Below are positions 5,607 to 18,144 of a DNA stretch of 38,270 nucleotides, in pieces; position 1 is the stretch's first letter, and each line of letters opens with the position of its first letter. A model generated the notes under the pieces. The model did not search any database, was not told where the DNA came from, and saw only the letters and a program-made list of their open reading frames with translations. A program made the translations under genes and the position numbers. The DNA is taken from positions 1 through 38,270 of IMG/VR virus record IMGVR_UViG_2609459790_000001; one strand, 5' to 3'. Source of the DNA: a virus (lineage: Duplodnaviria; Heunggongvirae; Uroviricota; Caudoviricetes).

Positions 5607-5914
5607 GCAGCTTCTCCAAAAATGTGTCTGCGTTTGAATATTGCGAAGGCATATTCAGCCTTAACTCTTTCGGTTATTGCATCCCAGAACCATTCAGCGG
5701 CTTTTTCCTGATAGTTACAGTCATCATCTTCCAGCCAGTCGATAGCGTCCTTAGTGTGTTCATCTGGTTTATATGAGCGAAGCATTTCGCTTATTGGGTC
5801 GCAACGTTTGCAGAGACGATCAACTTCACTGTTGATTCGTTCGTAATCTTCATCGGTAAAACTTGCGATGATTTGCGATATTTCACGCTTATCATTCAGA
5901 GTCAGAATCATCAT
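5603..5914 (-). CDS. Hypothetical acidic protein in the position of lambda gam or P22 abc (function unknown)
   Basis: 103 aa ORF translationally coupled (ATGA overlap) to the recombinase gene; no recognisable similarity to Gam. Confidence 0.55.
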   Translation of the reverse strand: MMILTLNDKREISQIIASFTDEDYERINSEVDRLCKRCDPISEMLRSYKPDEHTKDAIDWLEDDDCNYQEKAAEWFWDAITERVKAEYAFAIFKRRHIFGEAA

Positions 5915-5995
5915 CTTTCTCCTGTTCTTTGTGCTGATTGAGCATTTTGTTCATCTGACGAATGAATTCTTCGTCTGACCAGTTATCTGTAAAAC

Positions 5996-6148
5996 TCATT
6001 TCCTGCGATACCACGGAAGGTTGATAGCTGATTTCATCGCTTTATTTGCTTCAAGCCACATTTTTGAATCACCAATAAATCGGGCTATTACTGCTTTGTT
6101 TTGTGCTGCACGAAGCACCTGGTGATTGATGGCTATTTCATTGCGCAT
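5996..6148 (-). CDS. kil: Kil-like small protein (host killing / FtsZ inhibitor family)
   Basis: 50 aa ORF missing from the track (below its length cutoff): MRNEIAINHQVLRAAQNKAVIARFIGDSKMWLEANKAMKSAINLPWYRRK; FIGDSKMW resembles FIGDEKMF of lambda Kil as I recall it. Confidence 0.55.
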   Translation of the reverse strand: MRNEIAINHQVLRAAQNKAVIARFIGDSKMWLEANKAMKSAINLPWYRRK

Positions 6149-6267
6149 AACGCCTCCAGTTGTTTCTTTGCTGCTCTGATTAATTGTTTAACTCGGCGTG
6201 ATAATTCAGATTCGTGCGGGTAGAAAGCGGACATGACGCCGCTACCCGCGAACTGAAAGTGCATCAT
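6133..6267 (-). CDS. cIII: CIII-like small protein (FtsH inhibitor family)
   Basis: 44 aa ORF missing from the track: MMHFQFAGSGVMSAFYPHESELSRRVKQLIRAAKKQLEALCAMK; resembles lambda CIII core (AIAGWPV...PSESLLERITRKLRDGWKRL); strong AAGGAG ribosome-binding site 7 nt upstream. Confidence 0.55.
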   Translation of the reverse strand: MMHFQFAGSGVMSAFYPHESELSRRVKQLIRAAKKQLEALCAMK

Positions 6268-6336
6268 GGGTAACTCCTTATATTTGATTGCATAACGAAA
6301 ACGCCTCGAGTGAAGCGTTATTGGTATGCATATAAA

Positions 6337-6365
6337 AAGGCCCTCACACTGGAGGGCAAAGAAGA
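6337..6365 (-). terminator. Candidate intrinsic terminator in the leftward operon upstream of cIII (tL-like)
   Basis: Minus-strand hairpin GCCCUC-CAGUGU-GAGGGC followed by CUUUUUAUAU. Confidence 0.45.
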
Positions 6366-6452
6366 TTTCAAATAATCAGAACAAGTCGGCTCCTGTTTAG
6401 TTACGAGCGACATTGCTCCGTGTATTCACTCGTTGGAATGAATACACAGTGC

Positions 6453-6665
6453 TTATTTGCGAGCTTTGAGCATGGCATCAGCAATAAAGTAGGCATCATC
6501 TGCTAATTCTTTGTACTGTGGTGAATTCTGTCCACCGCCAAAGGAATGTCCGTCCCATCTGCGCACTATTGCTGCCATAGCCTTAGCAGCGAAGTAATCA
6601 CGTAATGTCGCATCACTTGCCATTTCTGGGCGTTTGATATCTGCTTCATAAAACTCGCACATCAC
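6453..6665 (-). CDS. Hypothetical protein
   Basis: 70 aa ORF in operon orientation, start overlaps the stop of the upstream ORF. Confidence 0.5.
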   Translation of the reverse strand: MMCEFYEADIKRPEMASDATLRDYFAAKAMAAIVRRWDGHSFGGGQNSPQYKELADDAYFIADAMLKARK

Positions 6666-6796
6666 TCACCTCCAAGAGCATTTGCAGCCTCTTTTGCTTT
6701 GTGAATCCATGGCAGAGCCATGTAGTACACAGCCTTTTCATCAGCGCCGGTGATATCATGCTCTGCCACCCATTTCGTAAATTCAACTGCGTTCAT
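6662..6796 (-). CDS. Hypothetical small protein (start uncertain; longest ORF would extend to 6862)
   Basis: ATG at 6796 preceded by GAGGTG ribosome-binding site; the longer track ORF begins at 6862 without an obvious ribosome-binding site. Confidence 0.4.
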   Translation of the reverse strand: MNAVEFTKWVAEHDITGADEKAVYYMALPWIHKAKEAANALGGE

Positions 6797-6851
6797 ATTC
6801 ACCTCTATGCTTGCTGCCAAAACAATGAACCATCCGGAAATTCCAGATAGT

Positions 6852-7076
6852 TCATAATTCACTCTTCAATACTTCCAACTTACTAATCGCCGATAGATAT
6901 CCGCGCTGATAGGGCATCATCATTCCTTCGAGCTTGCCACTTCTTAACTCCTCCCTGAGCAATTGTATTGCTTGATCAATAACCTCTGCCTTAGCGTCCT
7001 TTATGGCTTGCTTGCGGGGCTTTGCTTTCTGCTTTGGCAGATTTCTCAAGCATGATGGAATGTATGTCTGATTCAT
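6852..7076 (-). CDS. Hypothetical lysine-rich protein (not N-like)
   Basis: 74 aa from the ATG at 7076 (track ORF starts one codon earlier at a GTG); no arginine-rich motif typical of N proteins. Confidence 0.5.
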   Translation of the reverse strand: MNQTYIPSCLRNLPKQKAKPRKQAIKDAKAEVIDQAIQLLREELRSGKLEGMMMPYQRGYLSAISKLEVLKSEL

Positions 7077-7209
7077 CACTTACCTCGCTGTCAGTTGTTT
7101 GGATTTCCGGTAGCCTGCTGCGTAAAGAGCTACGTTTGGCAGGCACACAGCACCACCTTCAACTTCCTTCTAACGCGTTCCTGCAAGCGAAATGGCTCTT
7201 GAAACACGT

Positions 7210-7743
7210 TTACTGGCTCCGTCCATGATTTTCATGAAAGCCATATAGTGCATTGGCTTCTTTCCTTGCTTGTTTGGCATCATCTAAAAGTTTGAATGAG
7301 CCTAGGTATTTTCGTTTTCCATCCACAGTTATCGATGCAACATAAAACCCATGCTCTTTTCTTGCTTCAACACCTGTAACTCCAGTTGATGAAGATGATT
7401 TTAAAGGCATGTTTTTCATATTCTCTTTGAAAGAAACGCTTCTTAAATTGGAGATTCTGTTGTCATCCTTAACGCCGTTTATGTGATCAATCACATCAGG
7501 CCAGTAGCCATGCACGTAAAGCCATGCAAGTCTGTGAGACTTAAATTTTTTACCTCCAATATTTATTCTCAGATAACCCTTGTTGTCAGGTGAGCCAGCC
7601 TTTTTACCTGGATACTTCTTGTTCCACGTCAAGGCAGCTCTGTTATCCGCAAACAAATGCTTTGCTCTCGGCTTCCAATAAAAGTCACCACTCACAGGAT
7701 TGTAATGAAGAATCTCCCTTACAGACGCTTGAGTAAGATCCAC
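7210..7743 (-). CDS. HNH endonuclease with AP2-type DNA-binding domain (homing-endonuclease-like), first gene of the PL operon
   Basis: 177 aa; motif YWPDVIDHINGVKDDNRISNLR (HNH_3 type) and a C-terminal AP2-like segment; GTG start with AGGAGG ribosome-binding site. Confidence 0.85.
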   Translation of the reverse strand: MDLTQASVREILHYNPVSGDFYWKPRAKHLFADNRAALTWNKKYPGKKAGSPDNKGYLRINIGGKKFKSHRLAWLYVHGYWPDVIDHINGVKDDNRISNLRSVSFKENMKNMPLKSSSSTGVTGVEARKEHGFYVASITVDGKRKYLGSFKLLDDAKQARKEANALYGFHENHGRSQ

Positions 7744-7759
7744 TTAAACCTCCTAACAA

Positions 7760-7880
7760 AAACACTTCAATAACCCTCCGGTTATGGAAATGTTCTTTTG
7801 TAGTGAGCAGCATTGCCGTTCATCCTGAACCCGCCGCGCTCCCGACGCATGGTTTAATGTCGCGCCGTTCGACATGGCTT
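7760..7880 (-). ncRNA. Candidate put-like cis-acting antitermination RNA element (putL-like), hypothesis only
   Basis: GC-rich structured leader between the PL operators and the first gene; shares CGAACGGC, GUCGGG and UCAGGAUGAAC-like blocks with the element downstream of cro; perfect 6-bp hairpin AUGUCG/CGACAU. Confidence 0.3.
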
Positions 7881-7884
7881 AACT

Positions 7885-7950
7885 ATATCCAAAGCTATTA
7901 TTTCTGTAAATAGCTATAGTTATAAAATAACTACTTTGGTTATTTAGTTG
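7885..7950. promoter_or_regulatory. Left operator/promoter region (OL/PL) with palindromic repressor sites
   Basis: Palindromes AAAGCTATTATTTCTGTAAATAGCTAT and AAATAACTACTTTGGTTATTT between cI and the leftward operon; the AGCTAT half-site recurs at OR. Confidence 0.55.
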
Positions 7951-8006
7951 TTGATATCTAATGTAATTTATTTTTCTTGAGTGTGATGTTTGGTGTGTTT
8001 TGGGCA

Positions 8007-8033
8007 ATAAAAAACCCGCAAAAAGCGGGTTTG
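8007..8033 (-). terminator. Intrinsic terminator downstream of cI (hairpin usable in both directions)
   Basis: AAAAAACCCGCAAAAAGCGGGTTTGTT: stem CCCGC/GCGGG flanked by an A-run and a T-run. Confidence 0.7.
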
Positions 8034-8049
8034 TTGTGGTGTGATGAGG

Positions 8050-8781
8050 TTAGTAATCAACTACAGACCACCAGAAAATTCTTCCGATGATCTCAATGTC
8101 ACTTAGATTCTTTTCTTCTTGTGGGTATTCCAGTGAGTTAAAGCTTCTAATGCTTACCTTGTCAGGCCCTGTTCGAAAGAGAATCTTAATGCGTTTCCAA
8201 CCGTTCTCGTTAATGGCGTAAATCTTTCCGTCAACTATTTTCTTATCGTTGGTGTTAACAGCAACTGTTGTTCCATCAGGAATGTTTGGCTCCATGCTGT
8301 TGCCACGAGCCGGAAAACAAACAACCCCGCTTCCATCACTGTTCGCGCCAACTCTGCGAAGGGTTGATTTGGAAAAGCGCAACATAAAGCCGTTGTGATC
8401 TTCATCAATCACCCGACCATCCCCGCATGCAAACTCAATATCTTTAAGGTAAGGAATTTCAACTTCATCACCTCTTAAAGGCGTTCCTCCATCCCATGGG
8501 TCCAAACACCCCCACGTGCTTTCATGAGGAATAGAAGATTTTGGATCATAAGGTTCAACTCCCTCATCACGCATTGGCCCAGTTCCATCGGAAAGCCATT
8601 CCGTACGAACTCCAAGCACTTTTGATATTTCAAAAAGTTTGCGCGTATTGCGTGTTTTTCCAGACGTAAGTTTCCAGACGCTTGGCTGAGACATGCCAAC
8701 AGCATTGCCAAGAGAAGCCTGAGTAAACCCAGCCTGATCCATCGCGTATGTAAGCCTTTGAGAAAAAGTATCTAGTTTCAT
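8050..8781 (-). CDS. cI: CI-type prophage repressor (HTH domain plus LexA-like S24 autopeptidase domain)
   Basis: 243 aa; N-terminal HTH (QASLGNAVGMSQPSVWKL), C-terminal S24 motifs GNSMEP and downstream Lys; divergent from cro. Confidence 0.9.
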   Translation of the reverse strand: MKLDTFSQRLTYAMDQAGFTQASLGNAVGMSQPSVWKLTSGKTRNTRKLFEISKVLGVRTEWLSDGTGPMRDEGVEPYDPKSSIPHESTWGCLDPWDGGTPLRGDEVEIPYLKDIEFACGDGRVIDEDHNGFMLRFSKSTLRRVGANSDGSGVVCFPARGNSMEPNIPDGTTVAVNTNDKKIVDGKIYAINENGWKRIKILFRTGPDKVSIRSFNSLEYPQEEKNLSDIEIIGRIFWWSVVDY

Positions 8782-8784
8782 TCG

Positions 8785-8860
8785 GACAACCTATAGCTAC
8801 AGCTATTATTAGTCAAATATCTAAAGCTATTTACTTTCTGAATAGCTTTGGCTATTATTC
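8785..8860. promoter_or_regulatory. Right operator/promoter region (OR, PRM/PR)
   Basis: Palindromes ATAGCTACAGCTAT and AAAGCTATT-N9-AATAGCTTT in the cI-cro intergenic region. Confidence 0.6.
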
Positions 8861-8889
8861 TTGTTGTGAATTCAGTAGGAGTTATTTTT

Positions 8890-9120
8890 ATGGTCAACAA
8901 GGCTATTAAAGCGGCTATTGACTCAGTAGGAAGTCAGCAAAAGTTAGCTGATGCCTGCGGTGTTAAGCAGCCGTCTGTATGGGCTTGGTTGCATGGGAAG
9001 AAAAGGGTATCCGCTAAAAATGCCAAGCGCATTGAAATGGCTACCAATGGAAGCATCCCTGCATACCTGATTCGCCCTGATTTATCCGATTTGTTCCCCA
9101 ATCCGAACAAAGCAGCTTAA
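8890..9120 (+). CDS. cro: Cro-like repressor (small HTH protein)
   Basis: 76 aa from the ATG at 8890 preceded by AGGAG; the track ORF begins further upstream at 8848 without a ribosome-binding site; HTH segment QQKLADACGVKQPSVWAW. Confidence 0.8.
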   Translation: MVNKAIKAAIDSVGSQQKLADACGVKQPSVWAWLHGKKRVSAKNAKRIEMATNGSIPAYLIRPDLSDLFPNPNKAA

Positions 9121-9129
9121 TAAAGCAAA

Positions 9130-9200
9130 TTTTTATACCGAACGGCCCGGTATACGGTCGGGTGCCCGGCGTGGTCAAGGATGACTGTCAATGGTGCACG
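9130..9200 (+). ncRNA. Candidate put-like cis-acting antitermination RNA element (putR-like), hypothesis only
   Basis: GC-rich structured segment CCGAACGGCCCGGTATACGGTCGGGTGCCCGGCGTGGTCAAGGATGAC between cro and cII, related to the PL-side element. Confidence 0.3.
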
Positions 9201-9239
9201 ATAAAAACCCAAATTATTTACCTATGGAGATAGTAAGAA

Positions 9240-9536
9240 ATGACACAAACAAGTTACAGCAAGCCAACACAGCGAGAAATTGATCGCGCTGAAACTGATT
9301 TACTCATCAACCTGTCAACGCTTACCCAGCGCGGTCTGGCAAAGATGATTGGCTGTCATGAATCGAAGATAAGCAGAACGGACTGGAGATTTATTGCTTC
9401 GGTCTTGTGTGCTTTCGGAATGGCATCAGACATCAGTCCGATTAGCAGGGCTTTTAAGTATGCGCTTGATGAAATCACAAAGAAAAAATCCCCGGCCGCC
9501 ACCGAGGATTTTAAGCAAATTGATATGCAATTCTGA
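9240..9536 (+). CDS. cII: CII-like transcriptional activator
   Basis: 98 aa; SKISRTDW and C-terminal [18 protein letters not shown] parallel lambda CII SQISRWKRDW and KKRPAATERSEQIQMEF. Confidence 0.85.
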
Positions 9537-12061: not shown

Positions 12062-12091
12062 AGGCCTGCTGGTAATCGCAGGCCTTTTTAT
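12062..12091 (+). terminator. Intrinsic terminator before the nin region (tR2-like)
   Basis: AGGCCTGC-TGGTAATC-GCAGGCCT followed by TTTTTATTT. Confidence 0.7.
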
Positions 12092-14235: not shown

Positions 14236-14884
14236 TGGCAGCAAATACCGAAATATTTGGGTAGTTGGCGATCTGCACGGATGCTACACGAACCTGATGA
14301 AAAAACTGGAGACGATAGGATTCGACACCAAAAAAGACCTGCTTATCTCGGTTGGCGATTTGGTCGATCGCGGTACAGAGAACGTCGAATGCCTGGAATT
14401 AATCACATTCCCCTGGTTCAGAGCTGTACGTGGAAACCATGAGCAAATGATGATTGATGGCTTATCAGAGCGCGGAAACGTCAATCACTGGATGCTTAAT
14501 GGCGGTGGCTGGTTCTTTAATCTCGATTACGACAAAGAAATTCTGGCCAAAGCTCTTGCCCATAAAGCAGATGAACTTCCGTTAATCATCGAACTGGTGA
14601 GTAAAGGTAAAAAATATGTCATCTGCCACGCCGATTATCCTTGTGACGAATACGAGTTTGGAAAGCCAGTTGATCATCAGCAGGTAATCTGGAACCGCGA
14701 ACGAATCAGCAACTCACAAGACGGGATCGTGAAAGAAATCAAAGGAGCGGACACGTTCATCTTTGGTCATACGCCAGCAGTGAAACCACTCAAGTTTGCC
14801 AACCAGATGTATATCGATACCGGCGCAGTGTTCTGCGGAAACCTCACATTGATTCAGGTACAGGGAGAAGGCGCGTGGGCATAA
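14213..14884 (+). CDS. ninI: Ser/Thr protein phosphatase (lambda NinI / lambda PPase)
   Basis: From [29 protein letters not shown] with metallophosphatase motifs GDLHG, GDLVDRG, GNHE; matches lambda phosphatase. Confidence 0.92.
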
Positions 14885-15393
14885 GAGAACTAAACCTCAC
14901 CAAAGAACAGCATGAGTGGCTGAATGGCTGGCTTGAACTGTGGGGCGCATGGGTTTATTCAGGTCGTCTGGAAAAGCGCATGAGCAGCGTAATAGCGAAG
15001 TTCATGGAGAGCGTAGAGCCGGGAAGAGTTATGACAAGGCCAATGTGTAATGATGATGATGGAATGTTGATTTCTCAGGTCGTCGATTCCGTCATGTACA
15101 TTGACAAGAAAGCCTTTGGCATCCTCCTCAGCTACTACGCTCATGGTTCATCTAAGCGAGCAATTGCATCCTACTATCACGCGACTGCAAAGCCACGCAA
15201 GATGTGTGGACGTGGTGGCGAGGGATGGAGAAAACCTTCACTGGCAACCTGTAGAAACGAAATTGACGACATCCTGAAAGCGTCGTTATTTGTTTTGTAC
15301 CAGCCAATGCAAAATGCTTTCAAAATGCGTAAACGTGTTGAGAAAGTTAAGCATGTTGCTGTTAAAAGCCTTGACATGCAATTATCCATTTAG
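14875..15393 (+). CDS. Q: Late-gene antiterminator Q, non-lambda (phage 21/82-like) type
   Basis: 172 aa; position directly before PR' and the lysis cassette; WGAW ... [11 protein letters not shown] pattern of the alternative Q family; GTG start overlapping the ninI stop. Confidence 0.8.
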
Positions 15394-17850: not shown

Positions 17851-18144
17851 CCATGTAGGCATTACAAAGCCTATCTACGGGTGGGCTTGATAATGAAACC
17901 GGAATTTATTCTGGGTAACCAGTTACGGCAGTACAGCGAAACAACCCAAGCCAGTAAGTGGGGAAATAACACTGGCAGCCACTGAAAGATGAACCTCCAG
18001 CCTTATGGCAAAAAAGATTCTTTGTGGTGGCGGACTGATGGAAAGACATCGGATAGAATCAAGCAGTGGCTAGGGTAGCTCCCGAAAAGCGGAATCGTCA
18101 CCGCCAGCCACTGAATCTATGACGAACAACTAGACGAGGTTGAT

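What the first reader, a model, noticed from the sequence alone, without database searches (positions are those of the whole stretch)
7744..7884. No N antiterminator gene; structured GC-rich leader after PL may be a put-type antitermination RNA
In lambda-like phages the first gene after PL is N, or nun in HK022. Here the first gene is an HNH endonuclease and no ORF in the leftward operon has an arginine-rich N-like motif. The 140 nt between the OL operators and that gene are GC-rich and predicted to fold (for example the perfect hairpin ATGTCG-N7-CGACAT on the transcribed strand), and share sequence blocks (CGAACGGC, GTCGGG, TCAGGATGAAC) with the segment downstream of cro. Two related cis-acting RNA elements, one after PL and one after PR, in a phage that lacks N is the arrangement known for HK022 put sites. 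If real, early antitermination here is RNA-mediated rather than protein-mediated.
Basis: partly seen in the sequence, partly recalled or inferred. Interest (0 to 1): 0.62.

Follow-up and report, generated by a model that had tools for sequence, protein, structure and literature searches.

The report
HK022-type put antitermination RNA sites
The stretch after the leftward early promoter and its partner after cro are near-identical copies of phage HK022's putL and putR, RNAs that make RNA polymerase read through terminators without an N protein; the mechanism is well known, and here it simply sits unannotated in a P22-like prophage.

Summary
Window 7876..7804 (minus strand) is a putL and 9134..9200 (plus strand) is a putR. 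putR is 100% identical to the tested HK022 putR. putL differs from HK022 putL inside the element only at two base pairs (3:19 and 5:17), both flipped A-U to U-A, so pairing is kept. All residues shown to be essential (A9, U28, G35, G45, A64) are retained. putL starts at the predicted PL transcription start and putR lies about 270 nt after the PR start, as in HK022. Twenty-seven distinct put sequences covary in support of the published cryo-EM pairing.

Some details need correcting:
- Only the 73-nt core is GC-rich (60%).
- The significant fold signal of the 140-nt leader comes from a separate AU-rich hairpin belonging to the HNH gene cassette.
- The operon is not entirely free of N. A Pfam N_peptide hit (56.5 bits) marks a stump of P22 gene 24 right after the HNH gene. 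It lacks the arginine-rich motif and carries an in-frame stop.

The element is already known (HK022, HK639, HK75), and Rfam has no put family. In related contigs, HNH endonuclease genes cluster beside putL, and in ten contigs one sits inside it.

The parts
7882..7910 (-). PL promoter candidate: -35 TTTACA (7910-7905), 17-nt spacer, -10 TATAGT (7887-7882). The predicted start is near A7875, which is put position 2.
   Evidence: (10 of 12 consensus matches). HK022 PL has the same -35 hexamer and the same start-to-put geometry.
7884..7943 (.). OL operator-like repeats. The motif (T/A)ATATC(C/T)AAAGCTATT is shared with the OR region at 8816-8856.
   Evidence: Inverted repeats in both regions; pattern enrichment of 11 matches against 2.5 expected.
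7804..7876 (-). putL antiterminator RNA. Put position n corresponds to window coordinate 7877-n. Pairing: duplex 3-7:15-19, stem I 10-14:30-34, stem II 36-72.
   Evidence: It is 100% identical to putL of Wanchaivirus PDP110P2 and 97% to HK022.
7756..7797 (-). AU-rich hairpin with a U-run (about -18 kcal/mol) between putL and the HNH start. It belongs to the HNH cassette, not to put.
   Evidence: It is absent from HK022, APC_JM3.2 and PDP110P2 and present in UPF_BP1. Unrelated HNH genes at the same site carry analogous hairpins.
7210..7743 (-). Free-standing HNH endonuclease gene (177 aa), the first gene of the PL operon.
   Evidence: Pfam HNH_3 E=2.7e-15 and PHROG 99 E=1.8e-66; 97% identical to the Salmonella phage UPF_BP1 protein.
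7083..7235 (-). Stump of an N-family antiterminator gene (P22 gene 24, residues about 50-100). It has no arginine-rich motif and carries an in-frame TAG at 7172..7170.
   Evidence: tblastn 81% identity to gp24 residues 59-100; Pfam PF25694 56.5 bits, profile 50-100 of 100; translation. The same TAG is present in two E. coli prophages, and PGAP marks the equivalent as an incomplete N peptide in NZ_LT599830.
6300..6357 (-). Two tandem intrinsic terminators (6357-6340 and 6319-6300) upstream of cIII and kil. These are the tL-type barriers that putL-modified polymerase must pass.
   Evidence: The window segment 6441-6330 is 95.5% identical to the O276 segment annotated 'terminator tL2a'. cIII and Kil are identified by Pfam.
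8050..8781 (-). CI-type repressor (HTH plus S24 peptidase). The immunity type differs from HK022.
8830..8858 (+). PR promoter candidate: TTTACT, 17-nt spacer, TATTAT.
8890..9120 (+). cro
   Evidence: Pfam P22_Cro / YdaS.
9134..9200 (+). putR antiterminator RNA, about 270 nt downstream of the predicted PR start.
   Evidence: 100% identical to HK022 putR over 70 nt; covariance model 61.8 bits.
9240..9536 (+). cII
   Evidence: Pfam Phage_CII E=5e-33.
12062..12085 (+). Strong intrinsic terminator after the DnaB-like helicase gene. This is the rightward barrier that must be passed before the nin region and Q (14875-15393).

Best explanation
The window is a P22-like temperate phage or prophage that uses HK022-type put RNAs instead of an N protein for early antitermination.

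Proposed sequence of events:
1. Transcription from PL produces putL as the very first 73 nt of the transcript. Transcription from PR produces putR about 270 nt in, between cro and cII.
2. Each nascent RNA folds into the V-shaped two-stem structure, with the 3-7:15-19 duplex.
3. The folded RNA binds the zinc-binding domain of the beta' subunit of the polymerase that made it and stays bound.
4. That polymerase becomes resistant to pausing and to terminators. Leftward it can pass the tandem terminators at 6357-6300 and reach cIII, kil, the recombination genes and int. Rightward it can pass the terminator at 12062-12085 and reach the nin region and Q.

Shown here: homology, conserved pairing and essential residues, position, the downstream terminators, and the absence of a functional N or Nun. 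Inferred from work on HK022: RNA folding, binding to polymerase, and readthrough.
For: - Sequence. putR is identical to HK022 putR. putL is identical to HK022 at positions 4-73 except A5U and its partner U17A, plus A3U and its partner U19A. Both fall under features annotated putL or putR in the O276 and HK75 records.
- Structure. Across 27 distinct put sequences, 89.9% of cells are paired, against 22-50% when partners are slid. Eleven of 22 pairs show changes on both sides, and the covariation score is 0.357 against 0.117 in shuffles (0 of 500 reach it). U5-A17, as in the window, is the commonest state in the family.
- Essential residues. A9, U28, G35, G45 and A64 (PMC9378689) are all retained.
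- Geometry. The PL -10 element ends 7 nt before put position 2, and putR starts about 271 nt after the predicted PR start. This matches PMC9378689.
- Need for antitermination. Terminators lie downstream in both operons.
- No alternative factor. There is no Nun and no N with an arginine-rich motif; only a gene 24 stump remains.
- No nut sites. No boxA sequence lies in either leader.
Against: - No experiment was done on this phage.
- The pause site 21 nt downstream of HK022 putL is not conserved here, because the sequence diverges straight after position 73. Any anti-pausing role at that site cannot be transferred.
- Free-energy folding alone does not single out the put cores. This is expected for a pseudoknotted, protein-bound RNA.
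- Rho-dependent terminators cannot be predicted with these tools.
Confidence: 0.92

Rival explanations
1. The put copies are inert passengers brought in by mosaic recombination at the edges of the immunity region, and early readthrough depends on something else, such as weak terminators or an unrecognised protein.
For: The put elements sit exactly at mosaic junctions. Homology to APC_JM3.2 and PDP110P2 ends at 7801, and homology to UPF_BP1 spans 7880-7157. The same put sequences flank at least four different immunity regions.
Against: The sequences are intact at every tested essential residue. The only differences from HK022 are compensatory. The family shows purifying selection on its pairs. 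The N gene is destroyed, so no other early antiterminator is recognisable. Strong terminators are present.
Confidence: 0.04
2. The leader mainly controls the HNH endonuclease gene, as an attenuator or translational hairpin, rather than acting as a processive antiterminator.
For: A separate hairpin with a U-run lies at 7797..7756, just before the HNH ribosome-binding site. Unrelated HNH genes at this site carry comparable hairpins.
Against: This accounts only for 7756-7797. The put core is also present in phages with no HNH gene, namely HK022, HK75, APC_JM3.2 and PDP110P2. A second copy sits after cro, where there is no HNH gene.
Confidence: 0.03
3. The leaders are nut-type sites served by an N protein supplied in trans, or by the gene 24 stump.
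For: An N-family remnant is present.
Against: There is no boxA or boxB in either leader. The stump lacks profile positions 1-49, which include the arginine-rich RNA-binding motif, and it has an in-frame stop. The leaders match put, not the P22 nut sites, which were not found by BLAST against the P22 locus.
Confidence: 0.01

Closest known systems
Phage HK022 putL and putR (King et al. 1996, cited from my own knowledge; cryo-EM structure in Hwang et al. 2022, PMC9378689)
   Same: The sequence is 97% (putL) and 100% (putR) identical. The two-stem fold, the essential residues, and the placement after PL and after cro all match, and there is no functional N.
   Different: The host phage is P22-like rather than HK97-like in its structural genes. 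The repressor, cro and operators differ. There is no nun gene; an HNH endonuclease gene and a gene 24 stump follow putL instead. The sequence downstream of putL, including the HK022 pause site, is replaced.
put-like RNAs of HK639, HK75 and prophages (King et al. 2011, J Bacteriol 193:5784; cited in PMC9378689, not readable here)
   Same: Same family. HK75 is nearly identical. HK639 shares the 5' half and the apical part of stem II, with a covarying lower stem II.
   Different: No putR-like copy of HK639 or CobraSix was found by BLAST with the window's putR. The window has the HK022-type pair of elements.
Lambda N / nut and P22 gp24 / nut antitermination
   Same: Same task, making early transcription terminator-resistant, and the same genomic slots after PL and after cro.
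   Different: Those systems need a protein with an arginine-rich motif that binds boxB RNA, plus Nus factors. Here the RNA acts alone and the gene 24 homologue is reduced to a dead 3' stump.
HK022 Nun
   Same: It occupies the first-gene slot after putL in HK022 and HK75.
   Different: It is absent from the window; tblastn finds nothing with E below 1.

Membership tests
put (polymerase-utilisation) antiterminator RNA, HK022 type | Sequence homology to the experimentally defined HK022 putL and putR | tested here: met
   putL 97% over 68 nt (E=3e-24) and putR 100% over 70 nt (E=6e-34).
put (polymerase-utilisation) antiterminator RNA, HK022 type | Two-stem V-shaped fold with the 3-7:15-19 duplex, stem I 10-14:30-34 and stem II 36-72 (PMC9378689) | tested here: met
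   89.9% of cells are paired across 27 distinct sequences, 11 of 22 pairs change on both sides, and slid controls give 22-50%. The window's own differences from HK022 are two compensatory pair flips.
put (polymerase-utilisation) antiterminator RNA, HK022 type | Residues whose mutation inactivates put (A9, U28, G35, G45, A64; positions 43-47) | tested here: met
   with the mutational data read.
put (polymerase-utilisation) antiterminator RNA, HK022 type | One copy at the start of the PL transcript and one about 270 nt into the PR transcript, between cro and cII | tested here: met
   The promoters are consensus predictions only.
put (polymerase-utilisation) antiterminator RNA, HK022 type | The phage lacks a functional N-type antiterminator protein | tested here: met
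   only a truncated, stop-interrupted gene 24 remnant is present.
put (polymerase-utilisation) antiterminator RNA, HK022 type | Terminator readthrough in cis, abolished by mutations in the RNA polymerase beta' zinc-binding domain | not testable with these tools
   This needs reporter fusions or in vitro transcription.
N-family antiterminator protein (Pfam PF25694 N_peptide; P22 gp24) | Full-length protein with an N-terminal arginine-rich motif that binds boxB | tested here: not met
   only profile positions 50-100 of 100 match; in-frame TAG; gp24 residues 1-58 are absent.
Nun transcription-termination protein (HK022) | Homology to HK022 Nun downstream of putL | tested here: not met
   no window hit with E below 1.
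Rfam-curated RNA family | A match to any Rfam 15 covariance model over the put cores | tested here: not met
   nothing overlaps 7804-7876 or 9134-9200, even at E up to 10. Since putR is identical to HK022 putR, Rfam 15 evidently holds no put family.

The most novel reading that the evidence does not exclude
putL travels as a unit with free-standing HNH homing endonuclease genes. Cleavage of an N-type rival phage near nutL or the 5' end of N, followed by repair from the put phage, would copy putL plus the HNH gene into the rival. This would delete nutL and the arginine-rich end of N, converting an N-dependent P22-like phage into a put-dependent one. The gene 24 stump in the window would be the scar.

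A related reading from other contigs: put tolerates a 0.5-kb HNH gene inserted at its stem I / stem II hinge, so the two stems can assemble on polymerase when far apart.
Probability: 0.2. Interest if true: 0.55.

Novelty: already known. Interest (0 to 1): 0.25.

Why it matters
For this genome, the result corrects the annotation. Early gene expression is controlled by two cis-acting RNAs that no automatic pipeline reports, because Rfam has no put model and the closest phage and prophage records do not annotate them.

More generally:
- put is not a curiosity confined to HK022. The core pattern occurs in at least 120 IMG/VR contigs, and this PL-putL occurs in 40 of 5426 complete E. coli genomes.
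- It has moved into P22-like phages. There, N-gene stumps show that it displaced an N/nut system.

The mechanism itself is textbook knowledge, so the finding would not surprise a specialist.

Tried and rejected
- Rfam at gathering threshold and at E up to 10 gave only chance hits in the region (mir-7927 on the AU-rich hairpin; Yfr1 and Trp_leader on the cI terminator).
- Single-sequence minimum-free-energy folding did not recover the put fold and gave non-significant z-scores. I rejected it as a test because the real structure is pseudoknotted and protein-bound.
- King et al. 2011 (PMC3187212) is not held. The ten known put sequences appear only as an image in the supplement of PMC9378689.
- A paper search for any link between put and HNH or homing endonucleases found nothing relevant.
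- One search used the wrong coordinates for L055 and should be ignored. Searches failed or returned nothing because of faulty search patterns and were redone.
- I considered a group I intron as the explanation for the split putL in related contigs. I rejected it because there is no Rfam intron match and the insert is almost entirely open reading frame.
- I considered boxA/boxB nut sites. None lies in either leader.
- The covariance-model hits in the window are partly circular, because the window's sequences were in the model. I therefore rely on BLAST against HK022 for significance.

Full report
**Layout of the region.** The window carries a lambdoid immunity region. It has a CI-type repressor (8050..8781, minus strand; HTH plus S24 peptidase), cro (8890..9120) and cII (9240..9536). 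Elsewhere it has an integrase, a Q antiterminator (14875..15393), and P22-type portal, coat and tailspike head-binding domains. It is therefore a P22-like temperate phage or prophage. A consensus scan places PL at 7910..7882 (TTTACA, 17-nt spacer, TATAGT; 10 of 12 matches) and PR at 8830..8858. Both promoters are embedded in repeats of a shared operator-like motif, ATATC(C/T)AAAGCTATT. The first gene after PL is an HNH endonuclease (7743..7210; Pfam HNH_3 E=2.7e-15, PHROG 99 E=1.8e-66).

**Checking the observation.**
- The hairpin ATGTCG-N7-CGACAT is at 7875..7857.
- CGAACGGC and GTCGGG occur in both leaders.

Four details are off.
- The 141-nt segment is 48% GC against a window mean of 46.6%. 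Only the 73-nt core (7804-7876) is GC-rich at 60%, and the rest is 35%.
- The third 'shared block' is only approximately shared.
- Free-energy folding of the two cores is no better than shuffled sequence (z = +0.27 and +0.62). The significant z of -3.19 for the full leader comes from a separate AU-rich hairpin at 7797..7756.
- An N-family remnant is present, described below.

**What the elements are.** Megablast of 7600-9300 against GenBank phages hit HK022, HK75 and the lambda-HK022 hybrid O276. The hits lay exactly under features annotated putL and putR.
- Alignment shows the right element is identical to HK022 putR from stem I to the cII start.
- The left element is identical to HK022 putL at positions 4-73 except A5 to U and U17 to A. 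Positions 3 and 19 are also flipped, A to U and U to A.
- In the numbering of the cryo-EM study (PMC9378689), A3-G7 pairs with C15-U19. Both differences therefore flip a base pair and keep the duplex.
- Short-query BLAST gives E=3e-24 (putL) and 6e-34 (putR) against HK022 in a 2.3-Gb database.
- The residues whose mutation inactivates HK022 put (A9, U28, G35, G45, A64) are all present.
- Rfam 15 has no match over either element, even at E up to 10. It evidently lacks a put family, which explains why no pipeline reports these elements.

**Structure across the family.**
These yielded 44 distinct putL variants.
- I aligned 27 distinct full-length putL and putR sequences and counted pairs for the cryo-EM-based structure, including the crossing 3-7:15-19 duplex.
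- 89.9% of cells are paired, against 22-50% when the 3' partners are slid by 1-3 columns. Eleven of 22 pairs change on both sides. The covariation score is 0.357 against 0.117 in shuffles, and 0 of 500 shuffles reach it.
- U5-A17, the window's state, is the commonest in the family, and HK022's A5-U17 is the minority.
- A covariance model built from this alignment finds exactly two copies in the window: 7876..7804(-) at 99.1 bits and 9134..9200(+) at 61.8 bits. The next hit scores 10 bits. The window's sequences were in the model, so this result mainly shows that there is no third copy.

**Position and need.**
- The PL -10 hexamer ends at 7882, which predicts a transcription start near A7875, put position 2. 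HK022 putL likewise begins at the start of the PL transcript.
- putR begins about 271 nt after the predicted PR start, matching the 'about 270 nt' reported for HK022.
- Leftward, two tandem intrinsic terminators (6357-6340 and 6319-6300) precede cIII and kil. The window segment 6441-6330, which contains the first terminator, is 95.5% identical to the O276 segment annotated 'terminator tL2a'.
- Rightward, a strong terminator (12062-12085) follows the helicase gene and lies ahead of the nin region and Q.

Both operons therefore have barriers that require an antitermination device.

**Is N really absent?**
- Pfam and PHROGs on ten minus-strand ORFs of 37 aa or more between 5603 and 7743 found cIII, Kil, HNH and unknowns, but no N or Nun.
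- tblastn with HK022 Nun and lambda N found nothing convincing. P22 gp24, the N analogue, matched window 7208..7083 at 81% identity over residues 59-100.
- Scanning the three minus-strand frames of 5900-7900 against Pfam gave PF25694 'N_peptide' at 56.5 bits, covering only profile positions 50-100 of 100.
- The reading frame carries TAG (7172..7170) where P22 and UPF_BP1 have Gln. Two E. coli prophages share this stop. PGAP annotates the equivalent in NZ_LT599830 as 'transcriptional antitermination N peptide, incomplete, missing N-terminus'.

However, the hit is a dead 3' stump lacking the arginine-rich RNA-binding motif. No boxA lies in either leader. The stump shows that an N/nut system once occupied this slot and was displaced.

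**Mosaic context.**
- 8100-7801 matches APC_JM3.2 and PDP110P2 at 94-95%. These share the same immunity type, the same PL and putL.
- 7880-7157 matches Salmonella phage UPF_BP1 at 98.6%, covering putL, the hairpin, the HNH gene and the start of the stump.
- 7162-6811 matches APC_JM3.2 again.
- 7208-7079 matches the 3' end of P22 gene 24.

The same put sequences flank at least four different immunity regions. This PL-putL segment is present in 40 of 5426 complete E. coli genomes, and 8 of them also carry the HNH junction.

**Mechanism.** The homology, pairing, essential residues, position, terminators and lack of a functional N are shown here. The following steps are inferred from HK022 work (PMC9378689).
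1. The nascent put RNA folds.
2. [quoted passage not shown]
3. It counteracts swivelling and hairpin formation.
4. It stays bound for many kilobases, giving readthrough of both intrinsic and Rho-dependent terminators.

The HK022 pause site 21 nt downstream of putL is not conserved here, because the sequence diverges at position 74.

**Novelty.** put RNAs have been known since the 1990s. According to PMC9378689, put-like RNAs from ten sources were described in 2011. The window's copies are 97-100% identical to the type examples.

**Side observations in related contigs (not in the window).**
- The site just 3' of putL often holds a free-standing HNH gene. It holds the window's type in at least ten loci and divergent types (33-59% identical) in six more. 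Each of the six representative genes examined is preceded by an unrelated long AU-rich hairpin, and most are followed by an N-family stump.
- N stumps also follow putL where there is no HNH gene.
- In ten IMG/VR contigs a 0.5-kb insert carrying another HNH ORF (Pfam HNH_3) sits exactly between put G35 and position 36, the hinge of the two stems. The two insert lineages are only 73% identical to each other, yet the 36 nt of putL sequence upstream of the insert are identical in nine of the ten contigs. There is no intron signature, and no isolated phage record has this arrangement.
- One contig (L029) has an HK639-type putL followed by an intact lambda-like N.

These observations suggest that the conserved put DNA is a homing target and that put and HNH genes spread together. 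That idea is untested.

Noticed in passing
window 7083-7235 (-): Stump of P22 gene 24 (N-family antiterminator), residues about 50-100, lacking the arginine-rich motif and carrying an in-frame TAG at 7172..7170. The same stop is present in two E. coli prophages. This looks like a scar from replacement of an N/nut system by put.
   Followed up: yes
window 7756-7797 (-): A 17-bp AU-rich hairpin with a GGAG loop and a U-run (about -18 kcal/mol) between putL and the HNH start. Unrelated HNH genes at the same site in other contigs have hairpins of different sequence but similar shape. It could be a terminator or a translational control.
   Followed up: partly
L018, L020, L044, L067, L122, L123 and the window-type loci L005, L026, L087, L094, L100, L130, L134, L135: The 70-90 nt just downstream of putL is a recurrent insertion site for free-standing HNH endonuclease genes of diverse sequence (33-100% identical to the window's). 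These are usually followed by an N-family gene stump.
   Followed up: partly
L055 9330-9915 (-); also L053, L048, L104, L130, L136-L140: Split putL. A 497-500-nt insert that is almost entirely an HNH ORF sits exactly between put G35 and position 36, the stem I / stem II hinge. There are two insert lineages, 73% identical to each other, while the 36 nt of putL sequence upstream of the insert are identical in nine of the ten contigs. There is no intron signature, and the arrangement is absent from isolated phage records. Either put tolerates separated stems or it is dead in these contigs.
   Followed up: partly
L029 2705-3761 (+): An HK639-type putL followed by a 115-aa ORF and an intact lambda-like N gene with the lambda arginine-rich motif (MDAQTRRRERRAEKQAQWKAAN). 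This contig appears to carry both antitermination systems in one PL operon.
   Followed up: no
L055 9280-9326 (-): A 47-nt stretch downstream of a CobraSix-type putL matches bacterial 16S rRNA positions 237-283 (Rfam SSU model, 32 bits, E=1.6e-7). Unexplained.
   Followed up: no
window 18063-18125 (+): The only Rfam hit at gathering threshold in the window: int-alpA RNA (RF02996), 41.8 bits.
   Followed up: no
window 7804-7876 and 9134-9200: Rfam 15 has no family that matches put, although putR here is identical to the experimentally characterised HK022 putR. The 27-sequence alignment (A3) and the covariance model (R1) could seed such a family.
   Followed up: partly
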